Part shown: positions 4,233 through 35,256 of the stretch, piece after piece
How the letters are laid out: each line of letters opens with the position of its first letter
Position numbering within the stretch: position 1 is the stretch's first letter
NCBI GenBank assembly: GCA_016208525.1
Contig: JACQYJ010000004.1
Span: 1-46,760 of the forward strand
Reading direction: 5' to 3'
Origin: Deltaproteobacteria bacterium
GTDB lineage: Bacteria > Desulfobacterota > JAENJC01
Length of the DNA stretch: 46,760 nt
Position numbers and translations under genes: made by a program
Notes under the pieces: model-generated
Seen by the model: the letters and a program-made list of their open reading frames with translations, nothing else
The model's database searches: none
Told to the model about the DNA's origin: nothing

Positions 4233-5609
4233 TCAGAATATCTTTAAAATACCGTCTATGGTCATTTCCGTAGCCCCGCGATTTTGCAGAACCGCCTGCT
4301 TTGCCCTGTCTCCTGTCATGCCGCATAAATCGTCATCTGCAAGAAGCCTGTCTATCCGGCTTTTAAGCTCTTCAGCATTGTTAACCCTGACCCCTCCCCC
4401 GCTTTCTTCCAGTATCCTGGCCGAGTCCCTGAAATTCTCAATATGAGGGCCGAAAAGCACCGGTCTCCCGTACGAAGCAGGTTCAAGGATGTTGTGGCCG
4501 CCAACAGGTACGAGAGTTCCACCTACAAATACAATTGTCCCATATTTATAAAAAGATGCAAGTTCACCAAGGGTATCAAGCAATAGGATGGACGACTCTA
4601 TCTTTTCAGAAACCTCTGAACGTCTTACATACTTAAGACCCTTTTCATTAAGTATCCCCTCAACCTCTCTGACCCTGTCAAGGTGCCTGGGGGCAAGGAC
4701 CAGCTTCAGCGCAGGGTATCTCTCCCTCAGTCCTTTGTACACATCCAGCACAGGAGATTCCTCGCCTGAACGGGTGCTCCCGGCCAGAAGGACAGGGCCG
4801 CCCCATATCTCCATGAACCCTATGCCCTTGTCTATTGCGTTAATATCAAACTTGATATTTCCTGTTACAGTCACCCTTGAAGGCTCTGCGCCAAGAGTGA
4901 TAATCCTTTGGGCATCGCCCCCGGATTGCATCAGGAATGCCCTTATATGACAAAATACCTTTCTAAGAAGCGGGCTGATGAACCAGTACTTCCCGTAAGA
5001 CCTGTCTGAGATCCTGCCGTTGACTACTGCCACCGGGATACCCATACTCCCGGCCTTTCTTATAAGGTTAGGCCAGAGTTCAGTCTCCATCAGAATGAGG
5101 GCTGAAGGATTAACCTTTTTCACAGCCCTGTTGACTACCCACGGTAAATCCAGGGGGAGGAATATCACACCATCGGCCTTGAGCTTCTCTTTTGCAGCCT
5201 TGTTTCCTGTTGGGGTGAATGTGGAGACAAGAAGCTTTTTGTCCGGCCACCTCCCCTTGATCGCATCAAGAAGCCGCTGGGAGGCGATGACCTCCCCGAC
5301 CGATGAAGCATGGAACCAGATAGGCCTTTCCTCTGAATCTCCCCCTTTGGCAAAGAGGGATAAAGGGGGATTTTTCAGATCAGCTACAACTTTATCTGGA
5401 ATATTCCCCAACCTTTCTGAAAGGCCGGTTCTGTAACGTTTATCGGTAAGGAGTTTGTAGAATATGAAAGGGGAAAGGATAACGAGAGATAAGATAATGA
5501 GTATGTTATAAAGAAATAGCACTGTGGACCCCTGATTCTGAAATGGTGGGCGCAGCCCACCCTGTTTAACCGGCTCCTGACGACTGACCACCGGCCACTG
5601 ATAATTCAT
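4233..5609 (-). CDS. waaA: 3-deoxy-D-manno-octulosonic acid (Kdo) transferase
   Basis: 458 aa. PIWFHASSVGEV matches the KdtA signature, and the C-terminal half is glycosyltransferase-like. The start ATG overlaps the stop of the upstream permease (ATGA). Confidence 0.85.
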   Translation of the reverse strand: MNYQWPVVSRQEPVKQGGLRPPFQNQGSTVLFLYNILIILSLVILSPFIFYKLLTDKRYRTGLSERLGNIPDKVVADLKNPPLSLFAKGGDSEERPIWFHASSVGEVIASQRLLDAIKGRWPDKKLLVSTFTPTGNKAAKEKLKADGVIFLPLDLPWVVNRAVKKVNPSALILMETELWPNLIRKAGSMGIPVAVVNGRISDRSYGKYWFISPLLRKVFCHIRAFLMQSGGDAQRIITLGAEPSRVTVTGNIKFDINAIDKGIGFMEIWGGPVLLAGSTRSGEESPVLDVYKGLRERYPALKLVLAPRHLDRVREVEGILNEKGLKYVRRSEVSEKIESSILLLDTLGELASFYKYGTIVFVGGTLVPVGGHNILEPASYGRPVLFGPHIENFRDSARILEESGGGVRVNNAEELKSRIDRLLADDDLCGMTGDRAKQAVLQNRGATEMTIDGILKIF

Positions 5610-7207: not shown

Positions 7208-7270
7208 AAATTCCTTGACAAGATATACATTATTTAATAATATGTTACCAATACTTTGGCGGTGACTGAG

Positions 7271-8032
7271 TCATTCGGGCGCCGCCTTTTTCTTTTTGGG
7301 AAGAACCACAAGCCCGTACCCTTCGTATCGCCCCTTTATGTCCCTTCTAAACTTTCTTTCGATGACGTGCCAGTCCTGCTTTGGATTTTTCCCCAAAACA
7401 TGGCGACCAATAGGCGACACGAGAAGATCGGCGATCTGCAACCCCGCAATGTCCTTCTTTTTGTCGCGGATATGAAGCTCCTTGATATATTTCCGAACCT
7501 TAGAGGCCGAGGTATAATCAGTCCCGCCAGTCCTAAGCTCCATCCAGGCAAGGCGCAGCTCATTATCAAGGGTTTCATCCCTCGATTCCGCGATTATATG
7601 GCCTGGAGCATCATCCCCTCTGTTTTTAACCTCATGCACAAACCGTTCGACAAGAATTCTCAGGGAGAGCATATAAGGGTCTAATGCCGCCAGGCCGCAC
7701 TCCGACAAATGCTCATTCTTATTGATGACAGAGGCAACTATCATATAATCCAGATCATCCATCAACCGATTGGTTTCGCGATAAAAACGCTCCCTGAATG
7801 CGGCATCCGTAAGCCTGTGAAAAACCCCTTTTCGTCTCACTATATCTGCCGTATGAAGGATAAAATCGTCCCTTCCAAATAGCTCCATCTTATACTGTCT
7901 CAGCCTCGGCACGGCTGTCTTCTCATGATAATCCATGTCCATTATGCATCCGCCGAGGACAAAGACAGGATACTGCGGGTCTATGATATCCAGGCTGTGA
8001 TCTCCTGATTCATCTAAGAAAAGAGCGAGCAT
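7271..8032 (-). CDS. DUF3800 domain protein
   Basis: 253 aa. It has N-terminal LFLDESGD, a central IIAESRDE and a C-terminal GLQIADLL, which are the motifs I associate with Pfam DUF3800. Confidence 0.65.
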   Translation of the reverse strand: MLALFLDESGDHSLDIIDPQYPVFVLGGCIMDMDYHEKTAVPRLRQYKMELFGRDDFILHTADIVRRKGVFHRLTDAAFRERFYRETNRLMDDLDYMIVASVINKNEHLSECGLAALDPYMLSLRILVERFVHEVKNRGDDAPGHIIAESRDETLDNELRLAWMELRTGGTDYTSASKVRKYIKELHIRDKKKDIAGLQIADLLVSPIGRHVLGKNPKQDWHVIERKFRRDIKGRYEGYGLVVLPKKKKAAPE

Positions 8033-8186
8033 TTATATTTCCTTATTGCACACTGTTTTTTTCATCCAATCCCCTCAATCAGTCGCCGCAGGGCTTACAG
8101 TGTATTTTTTCCGAAATTCAGTATCACGTCATCGGAATTCAGGCATTTGACACTCTTTACCATTTCTTTCATTGCTGTGGCTGTGG

Positions 8187-9014
8187 TTATTTCGCATTCT
8201 TATCGGATAGATTAACCATGCTCAATACATATTCAACAAAGAGAATAGCTTTAATAGAATTTTCAGGTGTTCCATAATCAACGCTATTTCCATGTATGAT
8301 TATATGACGGCTCAAAAGGGAAGGCGGATTTTTTTTGATGCTATAACCTTTGTATAGAAACTGAATAAATTCATTAAAAGGGTCTATCATTGACTCATAT
8401 ATTTCGGGGCAGTTTTTGAAACGCTTTTTTACATTGTTTGCTTTCAGTCTATCAACACCCATACAATCATTGTAAATACCTTCTGCCTGAATCAGAAATA
8501 TAGGCACAGACAAATAATATTTTCCATTAAGATGAGCATCAAAGGCATCCACAATAATGTGTTTCCTATTATTGACAATGAGATTAGTAATTATATTCTC
8601 ATAAGCTTCTTTGATATACTCATGTTCGGAAAATGTTTCTATTAGGGCTTTAATGATACCTTCAATCCCCTCTGTCTTTCTAATTTCTTCAAATTCATGC
8701 ACACATTTAGCTGGCCAGGCTGGGCTTATGAACCAACCATGTGGAATCAAAGCCTTATTCAATTCCCGATAAAGTCTCTCCTGTTCACGTATTGCCTTTT
8801 GCATCGCGAAATTTCGATTGAGATATCGCTGCATCTCTGCCTGAACCGCTTTCTTTTGCGATTCAATGAATTCCGATAAATGGAGTGGCATCACGGTATT
8901 AAAATGCCTGATAGGCATTTTATGGATGGCCTCTATATGCAAATAAGGTGAATTTCTTGTTTTGACCTTCATTTCAATCTCTTGAATTAGAAGTCTCTTC
9001 ATATTTCCCCTCAT
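8187..9014 (-). CDS. Hypothetical protein with a possible C-terminal HEPN-like domain (Rx4H)
   Basis: 275 aa and AT-rich. It contains DAFDAHLNGKYYLSVPIFLIQAEGIYND followed by LLSRHIIIHGNSVDYGT (R-x4-H-G). This helix pair plus Rx4-6H layout is typical of HEPN/Abi-type RNases. The start lies 6 nt after the stop of the HA-repeat ORF. Confidence 0.5.
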   Translation of the reverse strand: MRGNMKRLLIQEIEMKVKTRNSPYLHIEAIHKMPIRHFNTVMPLHLSEFIESQKKAVQAEMQRYLNRNFAMQKAIREQERLYRELNKALIPHGWFISPAWPAKCVHEFEEIRKTEGIEGIIKALIETFSEHEYIKEAYENIITNLIVNNRKHIIVDAFDAHLNGKYYLSVPIFLIQAEGIYNDCMGVDRLKANNVKKRFKNCPEIYESMIDPFNEFIQFLYKGYSIKKNPPSLLSRHIIIHGNSVDYGTPENSIKAILFVEYVLSMVNLSDKNAK

Positions 9015-9020
9015 GGTGTG

Positions 9021-10181
9021 CTAATCATCACTTTGATTTCTACAATTCCACTTAAACCCCATATCTTCAAGCCTTTTAACCTTATCTGGTGACAACTTAC
9101 CTTTTTTAAATGCCTGCTTCTTATGGCTTTGCCATATACCAAGCTTAAAGCCCGCTACCGTCTGGTATCTAAGCGGCGCATTCGGTGTTCCAAACTCCTG
9201 CTTATATTTTAGAGTTTCTGTAATACCGTCCTCGAAAGTTTTATCGCGACTATCCCACGGAAACCCAATTTCTTCAAGCCTTCTAATTTTATCAGGCGAC
9301 AGCGTCCCTTTTATAAATGAACCTCTTTGGTACGATTGCCACATTCCAAGTTTAAATCCGTCTTCGGTTATATATTTTTGAGGAGCATCCGCTTTGCCAA
9401 ATTGTTTCCTAAATTTCAAGGTTTCATTAAATCCCTCTTCAAAGGCTTCAGCAGCAACATCCCATGTAAAACCTATGCCCTCCAACAGCTTTATTTGGTT
9501 TTGTGGCAGTTTGCCTTTTTTATGTTGTTGTTTCTTATTTTGTTGCCACGCTCCAAGGCGGAAACCGTTTTCGGTTATATAGCTATTACGAGCATTGGGG
9601 ATTCCAAATTGCGCCTTATGCTTCAAAGTTTCTTGAAACCCTATATCAAATGACTTATCGAAACGATTCCATGCAAAGCCTATTTCCTCTAACCGTCTAA
9701 CTCTTTCACGAGAGAGCTTGCCTTTCGCATAAAATCTTCTGATAACATGCTGCCAACTTCCGAGCTTAAGGCCAGCGGATGACTCATAATTTCTTGGAGC
9801 ATTGGGGGTACCATACTGTTTCATATATTCGAGAGTGTCACGAAAACCTTGTTCAAAAGCATCGTCGAGATGATCCCAGATAAAACCTATTTCCTCTAAT
9901 CGCTGAATCTTGTTTGCAGCCAACAAACCTTTCTTATATGCCTGCCGTCTACTGGCTTGCCATCTTCCAAGCTGGGATCCATTAGCTGCTTTAAACCTCA
10001 ATGGAGCATTTATGGTGCCAACCTTTTCTTTGTAACGCAAAGTTTCTTGAAAACCCTGCTCGAATTGTTCATCAAAGATACTCCATGTAAACCCTATTGC
10101 CTCCATTTTTAAAACTTTTTCCCCGGATAGTCTTCCTCGTTTATAATGTTTCCTTTGATGACCGAGCCAGCTTCCAAGCAT
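9021..10181 (-). CDS. Helicase-associated (HA, PF03457-like) domain repeat protein, 5'-truncated
   Basis: 386 aa made of 5.5 tandem ~69-aa units. Each unit ends ..LG.WQ....(K)KG.L....(I/V).(R)LEEIGF.W. The ORF starts in the middle of a unit, and the missing half is not found in any upstream frame. Confidence 0.7.
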   Translation of the reverse strand: MLGSWLGHQRKHYKRGRLSGEKVLKMEAIGFTWSIFDEQFEQGFQETLRYKEKVGTINAPLRFKAANGSQLGRWQASRRQAYKKGLLAANKIQRLEEIGFIWDHLDDAFEQGFRDTLEYMKQYGTPNAPRNYESSAGLKLGSWQHVIRRFYAKGKLSRERVRRLEEIGFAWNRFDKSFDIGFQETLKHKAQFGIPNARNSYITENGFRLGAWQQNKKQQHKKGKLPQNQIKLLEGIGFTWDVAAEAFEEGFNETLKFRKQFGKADAPQKYITEDGFKLGMWQSYQRGSFIKGTLSPDKIRRLEEIGFPWDSRDKTFEDGITETLKYKQEFGTPNAPLRYQTVAGFKLGIWQSHKKQAFKKGKLSPDKVKRLEDMGFKWNCRNQSDD

Positions 10182-10782
10182 GTGTCCCTTCCTCGCCTTT
10201 GCCCTGCAAAACCCTCATTTGAGAAACCATCTCCTCAAGCCTTTGATCCTGATCTACCATTGCCTGAAGGACTTCCCACACAGTCGCAAAATCAGAACTC
10301 TCTATAATCTCATCTGGATTAGCATCTTCCCCAACCACTGCAGGGATGAATATATATCCCTTCTCCTTCCACTCCGCCTTTCTCATCGCCCTGCCGGTGG
10401 CCTGGACTATGTCAATGAGGCCCTTCTTCGGGTCTATAAAGGCGACCGTATCAACAGCCGGGACATCCACCCCTTCCGTCAAACAGCGGGCGTTGCTCAT
10501 GATTCCGTTCTCCGCCTCTTTGAACTCTTTCATGATGCTGTTTCTCACGCCTGAAGACATCGTGCCGTTGACGTGGAAAAACTTTACTTTTCCTTTTACC
10601 CCCTCCCCTTCATCCCCTCCCGCCGGGGGAGGGGAGATAAAAGAGTGCTCCCTCGCCACTTGTGGAAGCTGCCTGTCCTGAGAGCCGTTCTCTCCTTCGA
10701 CAGGCTCAGGACGAACGGCGCCAAAGGGGTCGTCGGGGTGAAGGGGTGTTTTCAAGCATCTTGAAGACCTGGCCGATTCCAT
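10141..10782 (-). pseudogene. SF2 (DEAD/DEAH, type III res-like) helicase, C-terminal fragment
   Basis: From VKFFHVNGTMSSGVRNSIMKEFKEAENGIMSNARCLTEGVDVPAVDTVAFIDPKKGLIDIVQATGRAMRK the sequence covers helicase motifs IV-VI. The first ~64 codons (..VRPEPVEGE..PPPAGGDEGEG) are translated repeat elements. The frame differs from both neighbouring fragments. Confidence 0.75.
10591..10755. repeat. Composite repeat insertion disrupting the helicase gene
   Basis: It contains ccccctccccttcatcccctcccgccgggggagggg (a GC palindrome of the 'PPLxKGG' family) plus ccttcgacaggctcaggacgaacgg (one arm of the 1217-1335 family). Confidence 0.7.
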
Positions 10783-12058
10783 AGGGCGTCTTTGTGTCTG
10801 TAAACGCCTTTGCCCCGTTTACCCTGGCGTGGAACGTGAAGACCTTTTTCAATCCGTATGCCTTCATCCCTTTGACAAGGGCCACACGCTTTGCAAAAGC
10901 CTTTGCGTCCCATTCGTGCTCATCATCTGTAACGACCCTTCCGCCACGCTGGATTATCTCTCTGACCTCGGAGTCTGTAACGCAGATGACCACGATCTTG
11001 TAATCGGTGATATGCCCTCTTTCTATCGCCTCCCCGAAGGTCATCTCGTAAAACGGCCTGCCGTATGTTTCGGTGTCGTCCATACTGCATATAAGGATGT
11101 CTTCCTCTTTCGCTTTCTTAGTGATATGCGGGGCGTATATCAGAGGAGTGGCTGTCATAAAAATTCTGTTTCTGATGGAGACCTTTTCATCCCGAAGCGC
11201 AAGACTCCATCCGCCGACATCCGTCCCAGTCGTGCGGTGGGCCTCATCAAATATTGCCATATCGAATACCGTGCCTGTCTTTAAGGCCGCTTCCGAAAGG
11301 ACTTTGCTTGATTGGTAGGTAGAGAAAAGGACATAGGTTGAGGAATCGTTGTTGGCAAGGAACTCAGCTACCTTTTCGACATCCGTTGTTACAGGGACGT
11401 CCAACTCGTAGCGGTGTTCTATAGGTGCGTCATTTCGCAGGTCAACGGTTGTATCACTGCACAGACAGAGATAACGGAACGGCTTTATAGAGGTATTTAC
11501 CGCCCATTCCCTCAATGTCTGGCTTAAAAGGGAAAGGCTTGGAACCAGAACAAGTATGCGGGAGCTACCAGACTTTTCAGCTATCCACATGGCGGTAAGG
11601 GTCTTACCAGCGCCGCATGGGAGTATCAATTGTTCCCGGTTTTGCTCTTTGAAATGGGCCAGTGCCGCATCTATGGCCTCTTGCTGGGTCTTATGCGGCT
11701 CCTTTATCGCCGGTGATGAAACGCGCTGTTCTTTGAGATAGATTCTGATGCGGTCAAAGAAATCGGCGTCAAGCTGGTCAAAGCGGTCTGCAAGGATGCG
11801 GCTCTGTTTTGTCCGGTCATTTATTGCAGTAGGCAGGGTGTTTGCATTGGTTATGGTTATACGCCAGTCGGCCCTGTCCGATACGGTGAAGAACGTTGAC
11901 AGTTCCCTGAGAGTTGGGGTATTGTCCCTGTCACGCCTGAATTTAGCCTGATAGGCAAAGAGCTTCCCGTCCCCTCTTTCCTGCTCGGAAGAAAGGGATG
12001 CTATTGCGGTTTCGAGTTCAGGCCATGATTTAACATTATCCAGTAATCTTAAGAGCAT
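10706..12058 (-). pseudogene. SF2 helicase, N-terminal fragment (with a degraded Mrr-like nuclease N-terminus)
   Basis: It has Walker A-type LILPCGAGKTLTA, DEAH-type FDEAHRT and TATP. It ends in out-of-frame repeat sequence. The N-terminal EQERGDGKLF.. looks like the start of an Mrr-type nuclease domain whose catalytic core is missing. Confidence 0.75.
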
Positions 12059-12061
12059 AGC

Positions 12062-12226
12062 TTAAATCCTAATCCCACAGTTAACCCTGCAAGCGGGGGC
12101 AGTCACGATTTCTATAAACTCCCGCCTGACCTGGGTCTCGTTGTAAGAGCCGTTCTTATAGACATCGGATTTGCGGTCAAACCTTTCAACCAGTTCGGCT
12201 ATCTTATCTTTAGCATCTTCTATCAC
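12062..12226 (-). pseudogene. 54-codon relic of a type IIG / Eco57I-like restriction-modification enzyme N-terminus
   Basis: The frame starts with GTG and reads (M)IEDAKDKIAELVERFDRKSDVYKNGSYNETQVRREFIE, then continues as unrelated sequence to a stop. The YNE.Q.R.EFI(D/E) N-terminal motif is recalled from Eco57I-family and N6-adenine methylase fusion enzymes. The ORF falls below the length cut-off of the ORF track. Confidence 0.45.
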
Positions 12227-12234
12227 GACTTTTC

Positions 12235-12648
12235 CTACTCCCCGGCATTATTCAGAATATCCAGAAATTCCCTTATCGTAACTATCTTTATGGTATCAAA
12301 CTCCTTTAGTTGCAGGAGATGCCTGTCACCGGTCACCACCAAATCCGCCTTTGCCTCTTCAGCACACTCAAGGATTCTGTTATCAGGGTCATCCTTCAGC
12401 ACCTTCAACTTAATAGTCGGCTTTATGACCTGGGCCACATGGCTTATATGCCGGAGGGATGAGGTTATCCTGTCGTCTTCCCAAAGGAACTTTTCCCTCA
12501 GTTTTACTGCTGTTTCTGTCAGGATTGAGATAGAGGTGTAGAGCGTGATATTCCCATTAATGGTTGATAGGTATGCCTTTTCCGCCGTCCCGCCCGGAGT
12601 AATCAGGGCCGAGATATAGACGTTTGTGTCGAACACCACCCGGAGCAC
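12235..12648 (-). CDS. PIN-domain toxin (PIN_3 / TIGR00305-like)
   Basis: 137 aa with VVFDTNVYISALI at the N-terminus and acidic residues at ..ILECAEEAKADLVVTGDRHLL. Its start overlaps the stop of the upstream small gene. Confidence 0.85.
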   Translation of the reverse strand: MLRVVFDTNVYISALITPGGTAEKAYLSTINGNITLYTSISILTETAVKLREKFLWEDDRITSSLRHISHVAQVIKPTIKLKVLKDDPDNRILECAEEAKADLVVTGDRHLLQLKEFDTIKIVTIREFLDILNNAGE

Positions 12649-12893
12649 TATCTGCCCTCAAAGATAAGCTTTTCAATCTCTCTTTCCGTCAGATTAAGCC
12701 TCTTGGCCCTTTGTGACCCGTACTCCTGAAGTTCTTTAAACTCTTCTTTAAGCTTCTGCTGTTTGTAAAGGTTAAACATCTCCCTGAACAACTGACTGAT
12801 GGACTCTCCTTTTTCCTTGGCAATTTTCCTGTATTCCTTCGCGGTTGGAGATGGAAGAGATATCGTCATGACGGCCCTTTGTTGTGACGGCAT
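12648..12893 (-). CDS. Putative antitoxin (RHH/CopG-like)
   Basis: 81 aa. MTISLPSPTAKEYRKIAKEKGESISQLFREM is a beta-strand then helix pattern typical of ribbon-helix-helix proteins. The ORF overlaps the PIN gene by 1 nt. SD aggagg lies 5 nt upstream of the ATG. Confidence 0.7.
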   Translation of the reverse strand: MPSQQRAVMTISLPSPTAKEYRKIAKEKGESISQLFREMFNLYKQQKLKEEFKELQEYGSQRAKRLNLTEREIEKLIFEGR

Positions 12894-34992: not shown

Positions 34993-35032
34993 TGGTCAAA
35001 ATAATAACATAATACAAGGCGTGTATCCAAAT

Positions 35033-35063
35033 AAAAAAGGCGGGGCAAACGCCCCGCCTTTTT
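35033..35063. terminator. Bidirectional intrinsic terminator
   Basis: The 8-bp GC stem ggcggggc / gccccgcc (35039-35046 / 35051-35058) has loop aaac. An A-run lies on the left and a T-run on the right. It sits between hicA (minus strand, upstream) and the recN start region. Confidence 0.7.
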
Positions 35064-35256
35064 ATAATAAATAAACCGACCTGTCCTTTCTTACTGCACC
35101 ATCACCGTCCTGCCGCTGCTCCAGGTGGCAGAAATGTTATTCCAGCTCGAATCCTTGAGGGAGTGCGTTTTTTAAAGCGCGGCGATCTTTACATTGCTGA
35201 ACTTGACGTCCATCCTCCACGCATAAAGATTAAGCGAAGTTTGGCAATTAATTCAG

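What the first reader, a model, noticed from the sequence alone, without database searches (positions are those of the whole stretch)
7271..9014. DUF3800 protein and a HEPN-like (Rx4H) protein are the only intact cargo of a decayed defence island: candidate uncharacterised defence/abortive-infection module
**What the sequence shows**
- Two uninterrupted ORFs sit among wrecked neighbours. The neighbours are a helicase in three frames, a 54-codon RM relic and a truncated HA array.
- ORF 7271..8032 has DUF3800-type acidic motifs: LFLDESGD, IIAESRDE and LQIADLL. These are reminiscent of DEDD/RNase-H-fold nuclease motifs; that comparison is my speculation.
- ORF 8187..9014 has ..DAHLNGKYYLSVPIFLIQAEGIY.. 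followed by LSRHIIIHG, which fits the R-x4-H HEPN RNase signature.
- ORF 8187..9014 starts 6 nt after the HA-repeat ORF stop, so it is operonic with the helicase-HA remnant.
- By eye this block is clearly more AT-rich than the flanking housekeeping genes.

**Interpretation**
- Intact genes persisting beside decaying neighbours argues for selection on them.
- As far as I know, neither protein family has an experimentally defined function.
Basis: partly seen in the sequence, partly recalled or inferred. Interest (0 to 1): 0.7.

Follow-up and report, generated by a model that had tools for sequence, protein, structure and literature searches.

The report
Two unlinked defence genes, one antisense RNA
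The two intact genes are real and probably defence-related, but they are independent neighbours rather than a two-gene system, and the DUF3800 gene's conserved partner is instead a small hairpin RNA element encoded on the opposite strand at its 3' end.

Summary
Both ORFs exist as described. ORF 7271-8032(-) is a DUF3800 protein (Pfam 64 bits). ORF 8187-9002(-) belongs to a large unannotated family (2,137 representative clusters) with an invariant R-x4-H-G motif.

The proposed two-gene module is not supported:
- None of 80 genomic DUF3800 loci carries the Rx4H family within 8 kb.
- Only 2 of 107 Rx4H-family loci carry a DUF3800, in reversed order and at about 29% identity.
- A 94%-identical DUF3800 copy (L199) sits between unrelated genes, and the shared block is just the gene.
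- GC3 differs (0.54 for DUF3800, 0.34 for Rx4H).

DUF3800 is under strong purifying selection (dN/dS 0.07). Its relatives are often embedded in type I restriction operons between hsdS and hsdR.

HEPN status is plausible but unproven. The fold is predicted all-helical and the motif is invariant. The only meaningful structural match is a phage protein annotated DUF4209 (a HEPN family). Pfam and PDB searches were negative.

New result: every gene of this DUF3800 subfamily (87 of 87 loci) carries a covarying hairpin on the antisense strand over its stop codon. It has its own promoter-like site and a U-tract, and it matches no Rfam family.

The parts
7271..8032 (-). DUF3800 protein gene (253 aa). 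It is a predicted RNase H-like nuclease with DE (D7, E8), E149 and QxxD (Q199, D202) motifs.
   Evidence: Pfam PF12686, E 2.8e-17, 64.2 bits. 1,735 homologues were found. The window copy keeps all 50 invariant residues of a 35-sequence subfamily alignment. dN/dS is 0.067 against L199. The RNase H-like fold comes from the literature (PMC7736814, PMC10910872) and was not modelled here.
7258..7286 (+). Conserved hairpin on the strand antisense to DUF3800: GGCGGUGACUGAGUCAUUCGGGCGCCGCC. Its loop contains the complement of the DUF3800 stop codon (7271-7273).
   Evidence: The covariance model hits window 7245-7301(+) at 52.4 bits. In 79 sequences, 96.0% of cells pair on this strand against 71.3% on the sense strand. 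Nine of 13 pairs show double changes, and the covariation score is 0.489 against 0.225 for shuffles, with 0 of 500 shuffles reaching it. Folding energy is -17.7 kcal/mol (z -3.7) against -10.5 for the sense strand.
7287..7297 (+). T-rich tract (TTTTTCTTTTT) directly after the hairpin. Together they look like an intrinsic terminator in the antisense direction. On the other strand the same bases encode the C-terminal lysines of DUF3800.
   Evidence: Read from the sequence. Across 79 loci there is a mean of 7.1 T in the 12 nt after the stem.
7215..7243 (+). Promoter-like site (TTGACA, 17 nt, TAATAT) pointing into the hairpin. The predicted transcript is about 45-50 nt.
   Evidence: The promoter scan scores it 10 of 12. 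A site of at least 9 of 12 occurs in 40 of 79 loci, against 8% of shuffled controls. TTGACA is the dominant -35 hexamer, and the -10 box ends mostly 10-16 nt before the stem.
8033..8186 (-). 154-nt spacer between the Rx4H and DUF3800 ORFs, with no recognised element.
   Evidence: No Rfam match at E up to 10. No terminator or minus-strand promoter consensus. The similarity to L199 starts only 5 nt before the DUF3800 ATG.
8187..9002 (-). Rx4H protein gene (271 aa; 275 aa if started at 9014). It has a poorly predicted helical N-terminal region and a conserved, all-helical C-terminal domain of about 180 aa.
   Evidence: No hit in Pfam, NCBIfam or PADLOC. phrog_28904 at E 4.6e-10. The exhaustive search found 2,137 representative clusters at E up to 1e-3. 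AlphaFold models have pLDDT 86.7 (full length) and 87.9 (C-terminal domain).
8292..8309 (-). Codons for R232-H-I-I-I-H237, the family-invariant R-x4-H motif, followed by G238.
   Evidence: R232, H237 and G238 are invariant in alignments A1 (61 sequences), A3 (126), A5 (27 viral) and A7 (31).
9021..10181 (-). ORF with six helicase-associated (HA) repeats. It is AT-rich like the Rx4H gene and is context only, not part of a functional unit shown here.
   Evidence: Pfam HA, E 3.1e-84, 6 stretches. GC3 0.357. No HA-domain neighbour was found in 107 Rx4H-family loci.
10141..12058 (-). Decayed SF2 helicase in two further frames (ResIII 10706-12058, Helicase_C 10141-10782). The closest model is the helicase part of large type IIG restriction-methylase fusions (Type ISP-like, from my own knowledge).
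   Evidence: Pfam and PADLOC PDLC03597 hits. The three ORFs lie in three frames.
12062..12226 (-). 54-codon relic matching the N-terminus of a type IIG restriction-methylase.
   Evidence: PADLOC PDLC03604, E 1.7e-7, profile positions 5-40.

Best explanation
The interval holds two unrelated, separately acquired single-gene elements. They lie side by side because defence genes accumulate in the same island, here next to a decaying restriction-type helicase.

**(1) DUF3800 cassette.** This is a self-contained unit of about 0.8 kb. It has a ribosome-binding site and a 253-aa predicted RNase H-like nuclease with an intact DE...E...QxxD motif set. On the opposite strand it has a promoter-like site, a covarying hairpin that spans the stop codon, and a U-tract. 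I infer that this antisense unit makes a roughly 45-50-nt RNA complementary to the 3' end of the DUF3800 mRNA. That RNA would keep the nuclease in check, either by pairing with the mRNA (type I toxin-antitoxin logic) or by binding the protein (type III logic). Loss of the short-lived RNA during infection would then release a toxic nuclease. In relatives the cassette is often inserted between hsdS and hsdR of type I restriction systems, so it may act as a second line behind restriction.

**(2) Rx4H gene.** It encodes a solo protein with a variable helical N-terminal region. In about a tenth of the closest relatives examined, that region is a winged-helix DNA-binding domain. The conserved C-terminal domain carries an invariant R-x4-H-G motif. 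I infer that it is a HEPN-type RNase working as a single-gene abortive-infection or exclusion factor, distantly related to the DUF4209/C6orf70 HEPN family.

**Shown here:** the family memberships, motif conservation, lack of linkage, purifying selection on DUF3800, genomic contexts, and the structure and strand of the hairpin.
**Inferred:** transcription of the small RNA, nuclease or RNase activity, toxicity, and anti-phage function.
For: **Independence of the two genes**
- 0 of 80 DUF3800 loci have the Rx4H family within 8 kb.
- 2 of 107 Rx4H-family loci have a DUF3800, in reversed order, with a 98-aa ORF between them, and both proteins about 29% identical to the window's.
- L199 shares 94% DNA identity with window 7249-8037 only, and its flanks are a Clp-like ATPase and a glutamine amidotransferase.
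- Close DUF3800 homologues sit alone between housekeeping genes.
- GC3 is 0.54 for DUF3800 and 0.34 for Rx4H.

**DUF3800**
- Pfam hit, 50 invariant residues retained, dN/dS 0.067.
- An HsdR gene lies immediately downstream in 13 loci, with HsdS and HsdM upstream. DUF499/DUF1156, Fic and MobA neighbours also occur.
- The literature describes an RNase H-like fold, a role as retron type VII effector, and 11 associated RNA motifs (PMC7736814, PMC10910872, PMC5737381).

**Hairpin**
- Present in 87 of 87 loci.
- 96% of cells paired on the antisense strand against 71% on the sense strand; 255 G·U cells; 9 of 13 pairs covary; no shuffle reaches the observed score.
- One 40-70-bit model hit per DUF3800 locus, always antisense, including loci not used for training. 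The maximum in 0.82 Mb of control loci is 23.6 bits.
- Conserved promoter-like site and T-tract.
- The downstream gene is co-directional in 53 of 79 loci.
- No Rfam family matches.

**Rx4H**
- 2,137 relatives and an invariant RHxxxHG.
- Confident all-helical models.
- Foldseek against BFVD: a DUF4209-annotated phage protein, E 5e-3, prob 1.00, TM 0.64, 196 columns. DUF4209 is the C6orf70 HEPN family, reported in restriction-modification operons (PMC3710099).
- Neighbours include Type ISP restriction enzymes, Panacea antitoxins and P2 tail genes. Members occur in phages phi3T and phiCp-B.
Against: - No transcript data exist. The small RNA is predicted only from promoter-like and terminator-like consensus sites, and only about half the loci reach 9 of 12 promoter matches.
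- A transcript that starts a few bases before its own terminator hairpin is unusually small.
- Hairpins with the same loop core occur in phage contigs as ordinary same-strand terminators without DUF3800. The hairpin may therefore be a generic terminator design rather than a specific partner.
- HEPN fold: the best PDB matches (Csm6 6tug, E 2.5; 2hsb, E 7.5) are not significant. No family member reaches any Pfam HEPN-clan model, including DUF4209. PDB profile searches are negative.
- Neither protein hits any PADLOC model, so a defence role rests on context alone.
- In this genome the two genes are co-directional, 154 nt apart, with no recognisable terminator or promoter between them. They may be co-transcribed here.
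Confidence: 0.55

Rival explanations
1. One reading: the DUF3800 and Rx4H proteins work together as a two-component defence or abortive-infection module, for example one as sensor and the other as effector.
For: - In the window the genes are adjacent, co-directional and 154 nt apart, with no recognisable terminator between them.
- One other arrangement with both families exists (L105/L106).
- In L001 a 73%-identical DUF3800 follows a different Abi-type protein, AbiJ_NTD4 with a weak Abi_C hit. A loose preference for HEPN-type neighbours is therefore conceivable.
Against: - 0 of 80 and 2 of 107 co-occurrences, with the order reversed and about 29% identity in the second case.
- A 94%-identical DUF3800 gene sits in an unrelated context.
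- Solitary homologues sit among housekeeping genes.
- The two genes have different base composition.
- The closest Rx4H relative (50% identity) follows an Mrr-TPR gene and a 540-aa unknown instead.
Confidence: 0.07
2. The hairpin is only a transcription terminator or insulator. On this view it stops antisense read-through into DUF3800, or is a mobile terminator design. It has no small-RNA or antitoxin role, and DUF3800 acts entirely on its own.
For: - A hairpin plus U-tract is the canonical layout of an intrinsic terminator.
- Hairpins with the same loop core serve as same-strand terminators after outer-membrane-like and tail-fibre-like genes in phage contigs.
- In L022 the hairpin lies 165 nt downstream, in the antisense direction, of a DUF3800-V RNA and could simply terminate it.
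Against: - Ordinary terminators do not keep an invariant loop core (ACUG...CGGG in 79 of 79 sequences) across many phyla while their stems covary.
- A promoter-like site at a fixed short distance upstream is conserved well above the shuffled background.
- The downstream gene is co-directional in 53 of 79 loci, so there is usually no convergent gene to terminate.
- DUF3800 genes are independently known to associate with structured RNAs (PMC5737381).
Confidence: 0.25
3. The DUF3800 gene is a selfish mobile nuclease gene, analogous to a free-standing homing endonuclease. The hairpin is its recombination or recognition site, possibly acting as single-stranded DNA, rather than an RNA regulator.
For: - The same 0.8-kb gene unit at 94% identity lies in two unrelated contexts, with sharp boundaries.
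- It is inserted into many different intergenic sites across phyla.
- The fold is RNase H-like, as in many transposases (literature).
- The loop core GCGTAGC resembles very stable GNA-triloop DNA mini-hairpins (my own knowledge).
Against: - No terminal inverted or direct repeats or target duplications were found around the gene.
- There is only one hairpin, at one end.
- The G·U-rich pairing, the promoter and the U-tract fit RNA better.
- Strong purifying selection and frequent placement inside restriction operons fit a host-beneficial gene.
Confidence: 0.1
4. The Rx4H protein is not a HEPN RNase. The conserved R/H residues would serve another role, such as ligand or nucleic-acid binding in a regulatory protein, and the family would not be a toxin.
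For: - There is no significant match to any solved HEPN structure and none to any Pfam HEPN model.
- Some members carry N-terminal winged-helix domains typical of transcription regulators.
- phi3T_86 lies next to the arbitrium lysis-lysogeny locus.
Against: - An invariant R-x4-H-G near the start of the last helix of an all-helical domain is the defining HEPN signature (PMC3710099).
- The top PDB hit, although weak, is the HEPN RNase Csm6.
- The best structural match is a DUF4209-annotated protein, and DUF4209 is a HEPN family.
- AbiJ-type HEPN proteins also combine DNA-binding N-terminal domains with HEPN C-termini (PMC3710099).
Confidence: 0.2

Closest known systems
DUF3800 (PF12686) proteins, including retron type VII effectors and the TPR-DUF3800 accessory proteins of Cas12a2/a3 loci
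   Same: Full-length Pfam match with the N-terminal DE motif and the C-terminal QxxD motif. The family is described as RNase H-like and as pairing with structured nucleic acids: retron msDNA and 11 RNA motifs (PMC7736814, PMC10910872, PMC5737381).
   Different: This is a stand-alone 253-aa protein with no reverse transcriptase, TPR or Cas gene nearby. It matches no PADLOC retron model. The retron type VII proteins are reported to lack the Q of QxxD, whereas this subfamily keeps it.
DUF3800-I to DUF3800-XI RNA motifs (Weinberg et al. 2017; Rfam)
   Same: A conserved structured RNA element sits next to a DUF3800 gene and is followed by a terminator-like U-tract. One subfamily member (L022) also carries DUF3800-V.
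   Different: The hairpin matches none of the Rfam families, even at E up to 10. It is a single 13-bp hairpin, always antisense, and overlaps the stop codon.
Type I toxin-antitoxin loci with convergent 3'-overlapping antisense RNAs (par/fst RNA I-RNA II, txpA-RatA, bsrG-SR4; from my own knowledge)
   Same: A convergent promoter, an antisense RNA overlapping the 3' end of the coding transcript, and a terminator hairpin within the overlap.
   Different: The protein is a 253-aa predicted nuclease rather than a small membrane peptide. The predicted RNA is much shorter. Neither toxicity nor the RNA has been shown.
PrrC/RloC-type anticodon nucleases embedded in type I restriction loci (from my own knowledge)
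   Same: In 13 homologous loci the DUF3800 gene lies between hsdS and hsdR, the slot PrrC occupies in the EcoprrI locus.
   Different: There is no sequence or domain similarity. The window's own copy is not inside a type I operon. No functional link to restriction has been shown.
HEPN superfamily, specifically the C6orf70/DUF4209 family (Anantharaman et al. 2013, PMC3710099)
   Same: An all-helical domain with a conserved R-x4-H motif. The best structural match is a DUF4209-annotated phage protein. The family occurs near restriction-modification genes, as reported for DUF4209. The closest relative follows an Mrr-TPR gene.
   Different: No family member reaches the Pfam DUF4209 model or any other HEPN model. 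Similarity to solved HEPN structures is not significant.
Single-gene HEPN abortive-infection proteins (AbiJ, AbiD/F, AbiU2, AbiV)
   Same: [quoted passage not shown] It is found in prophages and defence islands.
   Different: There is no detectable sequence relationship: BLASTP against the AbiJ-like protein of L001 gives E 0.32. There is no experimental phenotype.

Membership tests
DUF3800 (PF12686) | Match to the Pfam model above the gathering score | tested here: met
   64.2 bits against a cut-off of 21, covering profile positions 2-149 of 149.
DUF3800 (PF12686) | N-terminal DE motif and C-terminal QxxD motif (as described in PMC7736814) | tested here: met
   LFLDESGD (E8 invariant, D7 at least 90%) and LQIADL (D202 invariant, Q199 at least 90%), plus invariant E149, in 35 sequences.
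DUF3800 (PF12686) | RNase H-like fold and nuclease activity | not tested
The fold is taken from PMC7736814 and PMC10910872, and activity cannot be tested with these tools.
HEPN superfamily | Conserved R-x4-6-H motif | tested here: met
   R232 and H237 (with G238) are invariant in 61-, 126-, 27- and 31-sequence alignments.
HEPN superfamily | All-alpha helical-bundle fold with the motif near the start of the last core helix | tested here: inconclusive
   The models are confidently all-helical, and the motif sits in a short helix before the last long helix. Coordinates could not be inspected. The best PDB matches are HEPN proteins but are not significant (6tug E 2.5, 2hsb E 7.5, 1wol E 3.9).
HEPN superfamily | Match to a curated HEPN-clan sequence model | tested here: not met
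   The window protein has no Pfam hit at E up to 10, and no HEPN family appears among the top families for 61, 126 or 27 members.
DUF4209 / C6orf70 HEPN family | Match to PF13910 | tested here: not met
   No hit at E up to 10 for five members. All 64 profile hits in the 5.8-billion-protein database carry no Pfam annotation.
DUF4209 / C6orf70 HEPN family | Structural similarity to a family member | tested here: met
   BFVD A0A8S5MX66, annotated as a DUF4209 domain-containing protein: E 5.1e-3, prob 1.00, TM 0.64 (query-normalised), 196 columns, 23% identity. This is a single predicted structure, and its annotation was not verified here.
   0 of 80 DUF3800 loci and 2 of 107 Rx4H loci, the latter with reversed order. 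L199 carries the DUF3800 gene alone.
Known anti-phage defence systems (PADLOC-DB 2.0) | Match to a defence-system protein model | tested here: not met
   Neither protein has a hit at E up to 1.
Rfam DUF3800-associated RNA motifs (I-XI) | Covariance-model match near the gene | tested here: not met
   None in the window at the gathering score or at E up to 10. None at the hairpin in L069, L083 or L036. Only L022 has DUF3800-V, at a separate position.
Type I toxin-antitoxin (cis-antisense RNA) | Antisense RNA gene with its own promoter and terminator overlapping the toxin transcript | tested here: inconclusive
   The promoter-like site, the covarying hairpin and the U-tract are conserved in silico. 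There is no expression data.
Type I toxin-antitoxin (cis-antisense RNA) | The toxin is a small hydrophobic peptide | tested here: not met
   The protein is a 253-aa soluble-type enzyme domain. The similarity is in layout only.

The most novel reading that the evidence does not exclude
A widespread DUF3800 subfamily forms a minimal protein-RNA toxin-antitoxin or abortive-infection cassette. An RNase H-like nuclease would be controlled by a tiny cis-antisense hairpin RNA encoded over its own stop codon. The cassette moves as a 0.8-kb unit and is repeatedly recruited into type I restriction operons as a back-up effector. This would give the first functional logic for the long-standing puzzle of why DUF3800 genes pair with a dozen unrelated structured RNAs. 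Separately, the Rx4H family, which includes phi3T_86 beside the arbitrium locus, would be a new HEPN-type exclusion factor.
Probability: 0.3. Interest if true: 0.8.

Novelty: new variant of a known kind. Interest (0 to 1): 0.5.

Why it matters
- **Annotation practice.** The result corrects a tempting inference. Two intact genes side by side in a decaying island need not be a system, and comparative context can show this quickly.
- **DUF3800 and its RNAs.** DUF3800 genes have been known since 2017 to sit beside at least 11 unrelated structured RNAs, with no functional hypothesis. Here the RNA element is reduced to a single covarying hairpin placed antisense over the stop codon, with its own promoter-like site. 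That layout suggests a testable regulatory logic, in which an antisense or decoy RNA controls an RNase H-like effector. The subfamily occurs in culturable strains (Novosphingobium, Sphingobium, Paracoccus, Solidesulfovibrio).
- **Link to restriction systems.** The recurrent hsdS-DUF3800-hsdR placement suggests a restriction-linked second line of defence.
- **The Rx4H family.** It is large (over 2,000 clusters at 50% identity) and has no annotation in any library searched. It is present in model temperate phages (Bacillus phi3T, Clostridium phiCp-B) and as inserts in P2-type tail modules. This makes it an accessible candidate for a new HEPN-type exclusion gene.

Tried and rejected
**HEPN and DUF4209 tests**
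- The Rx4H protein gave nothing in Pfam, NCBIfam or PADLOC, and only an unknown-function PHROG.
- PDB sequence and profile searches returned only coiled-coil or designed-protein noise.
- Foldseek against the PDB found no significant hit with either the full model or the C-terminal-domain model.
- BLASTP between the Rx4H protein and the AbiJ-like neighbour of a DUF3800 homologue found no similarity. The idea that both are the same HEPN partner was dropped.
- I looked for Pfam DUF4209 hits among 27 viral and 126 other family members and among five individual proteins. There were none.
- The last large-database profile search found only unannotated proteins.

**RNA and repeat checks**
- Rfam found no known DUF3800 RNA motif in the window.
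- A repeat search around the DUF3800 gene for transposon-like ends found nothing convincing.

**Context checks**
- A phmmer search for HA-domain or helicase neighbours in 190 loci found none.
- A search for phi3T_86 in the literature found nothing.
- The first related-loci run with the diverse alignment failed for lack of a conserved stretch. It was repeated with a narrower alignment.

**Viral scan of the hairpin loop**
- The scan of viral contigs for the loop 15-mer was meant as an independent validation of the hairpin-DUF3800 link.
- Instead it gave roughly the number of matches expected by chance, plus a few genuine hairpins that are not next to DUF3800.
- It therefore weakens the claim that the hairpin is exclusive to DUF3800.

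**Selection on the Rx4H gene**
- dN/dS could not be estimated, because synonymous sites are saturated against the nearest relative (pS 0.75, pN 0.35).


Full report
**Source and observation**

The window is a 46,760-bp contig of a metagenome-assembled 'Deltaproteobacteria bacterium'; the Rx4H protein carries locus tag HY786_00345.

Both ORFs are present and uninterrupted on the minus strand.
- ORF 7271-8032 matches Pfam DUF3800 end to end (64.2 bits, cut-off 21). It contains the quoted LFLDESGD, IIAESRDE and LQIADLL strings.
- ORF 8187-9014 contains the quoted helix and LSRHIIIHG. Its likelier start is the second ATG at 9002, which follows a GAGGGG Shine-Dalgarno and is the annotated start.

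The neighbours are as described.
- There are ResIII, Helicase_C and six-repeat HA ORFs in three different frames.
- A 54-codon relic matches the N-terminus of a type IIG restriction-methylase.
- An intact PIN/RHH pair also lies at 12235-12893.

The AT-richness claim holds for the Rx4H ORF (GC3 0.34) and the HA ORF (GC3 0.36). It does not hold for DUF3800 (GC3 0.54), which is indistinguishable from the flanking housekeeping genes.

**The DUF3800 gene**

It has 1,735 detectable homologues in many phyla. A 35-sequence subfamily alignment has 50 invariant residues, all retained in the window's copy. These include the DE, E149 and QxxD positions that the literature equates with an RNase H-like active site (PMC7736814; PMC10910872).

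Against a 97%-identical protein (L199) there are 36 synonymous and 10 non-synonymous differences, giving dN/dS 0.067. This copy is therefore not decaying.

In 80 genomic loci the commonest neighbours are type I restriction genes.
- An HsdR gene lies immediately downstream in 13 loci.
- HsdS lies upstream in 14 loci and HsdM in 7.
- All three identities were verified with Pfam.
- The resulting order is hsdM-hsdS-DUF3800-hsdR, the slot that PrrC occupies in EcoprrI (my own knowledge).

Other loci carry DUF499/DUF1156 methylase systems, SNF2-like helicases, or Fic and MobA genes. Some DUF3800 genes sit alone between housekeeping genes.

**The Rx4H gene**

Word-indexed search found only two relatives. 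The exhaustive HMMER scan found 2,137 representative clusters at E up to 1e-3.

Alignments show an invariant R232-x4-H237-G238 (consensus LNRHxVLHG). They also show a second conserved helix, AFxAHxxGxYxLSIPVFLxQADGI. The N-terminal part is variable, and in about a tenth of the closest relatives examined it is a winged-helix domain.

AlphaFold models are confident and all-helical: pLDDT 86.7 for the full length, and 87.9 with pTM 0.83 for the C-terminal domain.

Tests of the HEPN assignment gave the following.
- Foldseek against the PDB gives no significant hit. The top match for the C-terminal domain is the HEPN RNase Csm6 (E 2.5), and two canonical HEPN structures appear further down.
- Against predicted viral structures, the best match is a phage protein annotated DUF4209: E 5e-3, prob 1.00, TM 0.64, 196 columns.
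- DUF4209 is the C6orf70 HEPN family of Anantharaman et al. They describe it as retaining the catalytic motif, fused to TPR repeats, and found in restriction-modification operons.
- No family member reaches the Pfam DUF4209 model or any other HEPN model.
- All 64 profile hits in the large database are unannotated.

I therefore treat 'HEPN-like' as likely (about 0.6-0.7) but not demonstrated.

Contexts of the family:
- next to Type ISP restriction enzymes in 8 of 107 loci;
- beside a Panacea-HTH antitoxin cluster;
- near FRG-domain genes;
- as an insert between P2-type gpR/gpS and gpV tail genes in four viral contigs;
- in Bacillus phage phi3T (phi3T_86, three genes upstream of aimR) and Clostridium phage phiCp-B.

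The closest relative (50% identity) follows an Mrr-TPR gene and a 540-aa unknown.

**Are the two genes a module?**

No.
- None of 80 DUF3800 loci has an Rx4H-family ORF within 8 kb.
- Only L105/L106 among 107 Rx4H-family loci has a DUF3800. There the order is reversed, a 98-aa ORF intervenes, and both proteins are about 29% identical to the window's.
- L199 shares 94% nucleotide identity with the window over 7249-8037 only. That is the DUF3800 ORF plus 5 nt upstream and 22 nt downstream, and its flanks are a Clp-like ATPase and a glutamine amidotransferase.
- The composition difference points the same way. The Rx4H gene appears to have arrived with the HA ORF as an AT-rich block, separately from DUF3800.

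In this genome the two may still be co-transcribed, since no terminator or promoter consensus separates them. That would be an accident of position.

**An unexpected element**

Comparing the 3' flanks of DUF3800 homologues revealed a conserved inverted repeat at or just after the stop codon in all 87 loci. It comes in two variants that track the protein clades.
- Type A, the window's clade: sense GGCGGCGCCCGAATGACTCAGTCACCGCC.
- Type B: sense GGCCAGCCCCCGCTACGCAGTGACCAGCC.
- The element is kept even where the ORF ends earlier and the element is non-coding.

In a 79-sequence alignment I defined a 13-pair structure: a 9-bp outer stem, a 1x1 internal loop, a 4-bp inner stem and a triloop.

| Measure | Result |
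|---|---|
| Cells paired, antisense strand | 96.0% |
| Cells paired, sense strand | 71.3% |
| G·U cells on the antisense strand | 255 of 1,027 |
| Pairs with compensatory double changes | 9 of 13 (123 cells) |
| Covariation score, observed against shuffled | 0.489 against 0.225 (0 of 500 shuffles reach it) |
| Covariation score, slid controls | at most 0.17 |
| Folding energy, window, antisense against sense | -17.7 against -10.5 kcal/mol |

Upstream on the antisense strand there is a promoter-like site.
- In the window it is TTGACA-17-TAATAT at 7215-7243.
- A site of at least 9 of 12 occurs in 40 of 79 loci, against 8% of shuffles.
- The -10 box ends mostly 10-16 nt before the stem.
- Downstream there is a T-rich tract, with a mean of 7.1 T in 12 nt.

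A covariance model finds exactly one strong hit per DUF3800 locus, always antisense at the gene's 3' end. This includes loci that were not used for training. It finds nothing above 24 bits in 0.82 Mb of control loci. The divergent DUF3800 of L105/L106 lacks the hairpin.

No Rfam family matches. One locus, L022, additionally has the known DUF3800-V RNA 165 nt away. The downstream gene is co-directional in 53 of 79 loci, so the hairpin is usually not a neighbour's terminator.

**Caveats on the hairpin**

- There are no expression data.
- A scan of viral contigs for the loop 15-mer gave 97 matches, about the number expected by chance for a collection of that size.
- Only about a dozen of those matches are full hairpins, in roughly six lineages. 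There they mostly act as ordinary same-strand terminators after unrelated genes.
- One locus (L261) is a cassette remnant with the promoter, the hairpin and the last ten DUF3800 codons.
- The hairpin core is therefore not exclusive to DUF3800. What is specific is its invariant antisense placement, with a promoter, at every gene of this subfamily.

**Mechanism**

Taken together, the best reading is that there are two independent single-gene elements.

For DUF3800 I propose a protein-RNA cassette. An RNase H-like effector would be held in check by a small cis-antisense RNA, either through mRNA pairing or through protein binding. This matches how retron msDNA restrains type VII DUF3800 effectors, and it fits the known association of DUF3800 genes with structured RNAs (PMC7736814, PMC5737381). 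The steps from 'conserved hairpin' to 'regulatory RNA' and from 'motifs' to 'nuclease toxin' are inferences.

For the Rx4H protein I propose a solo HEPN-type RNase with an N-terminal sensing or regulatory region, acting as an abortive-infection or exclusion factor. This rests on the motif, the predicted fold, the DUF4209 link and the genomic context only.

**Novelty and score**

- The proposed two-protein system is not real as a system.
- Each gene is a new member of a known or suspected kind.
- The antisense hairpin is a new variant among DUF3800-associated RNAs. It offers a concrete experiment for an open question.
- Interest is moderate (0.5). The reading that the cassette is a protein-RNA toxin-antitoxin recruited by restriction systems has perhaps a 0.3 probability, and it would merit about 0.8 if true.

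Noticed in passing
window 7215-7301 (+), overlapping the 3' end of ORF 7271-8032(-): A promoter-like site, a covarying hairpin and a T-tract lie antisense to DUF3800. The arrangement is conserved in all 87 subfamily loci and is absent from Rfam.
   Followed up: yes
window 10590-10780 (inside the Helicase_C ORF) and 1238-1262: The N-terminal 60 codons of ORF 10141-10782 translate to low-complexity strings (PFGAVRPEPVEG, and LSLSKE on the other frame). Similar strings occur near 1189-1350, which suggests that a small repeat element is inserted in the helicase. Only a 25-nt 92% match between the two places was found.
   Followed up: partly
window 8187-10181: The HA-repeat ORF and the Rx4H ORF form one AT-rich block (GC3 about 0.35). 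The block is joined to a helicase core of normal composition (GC3 about 0.57), which suggests a recombination junction near 10181 rather than a simple frameshift.
   Followed up: partly
window 12235-12893 (-): An intact PIN_3 toxin and ribbon-helix-helix antitoxin pair with overlapping stop and start codons lies at the far edge of the same island.
   Followed up: no
window 9021-10181 (-), residues 160-191: The HA-repeat protein gives a whole-protein hit to Pfam HEPN_Toprim_N (28.5 bits, cut-off 25), but no individual stretch passes. It is probably spurious.
   Followed up: no
window 35025-35070 (-): A weak hit of the hairpin covariance model (26.2 bits, E 0.001) lies far from any DUF3800 gene. 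It is probably an ordinary terminator.
   Followed up: no
L022 5176-5274 (-): The Rfam DUF3800-V RNA (61 bits) lies antisense to and downstream of a subfamily DUF3800 gene, 165 nt from the conserved hairpin. The hairpin could act as its terminator there.
   Followed up: partly
L197 (Bacillus phage phi3T, KY030782.1 66938-67651): An Rx4H-family member, phi3T_86, sits in a phi3T-specific three-gene insert immediately upstream of the arbitrium aimR-aimP-aimX locus. No literature on it was found.
   Followed up: partly
L261 (about 4380-4500), L249 (11116-11170), L048, L072, L088: L261 keeps the promoter, the hairpin and only the last ten DUF3800 codons, so it is a cassette remnant. L249 has a consensus type B hairpin with no DUF3800 gene. 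L048, L072 and L088 have a second hairpin-like element next to the main hairpin.
   Followed up: partly
L001 990-1793 (+): A 73%-identical DUF3800 gene is preceded by an AbiJ_NTD4 protein with a weak Abi_C hit and followed by a 944-aa ResIII helicase. This is a different Abi-type neighbour in the same relative position as the Rx4H gene.
   Followed up: partly
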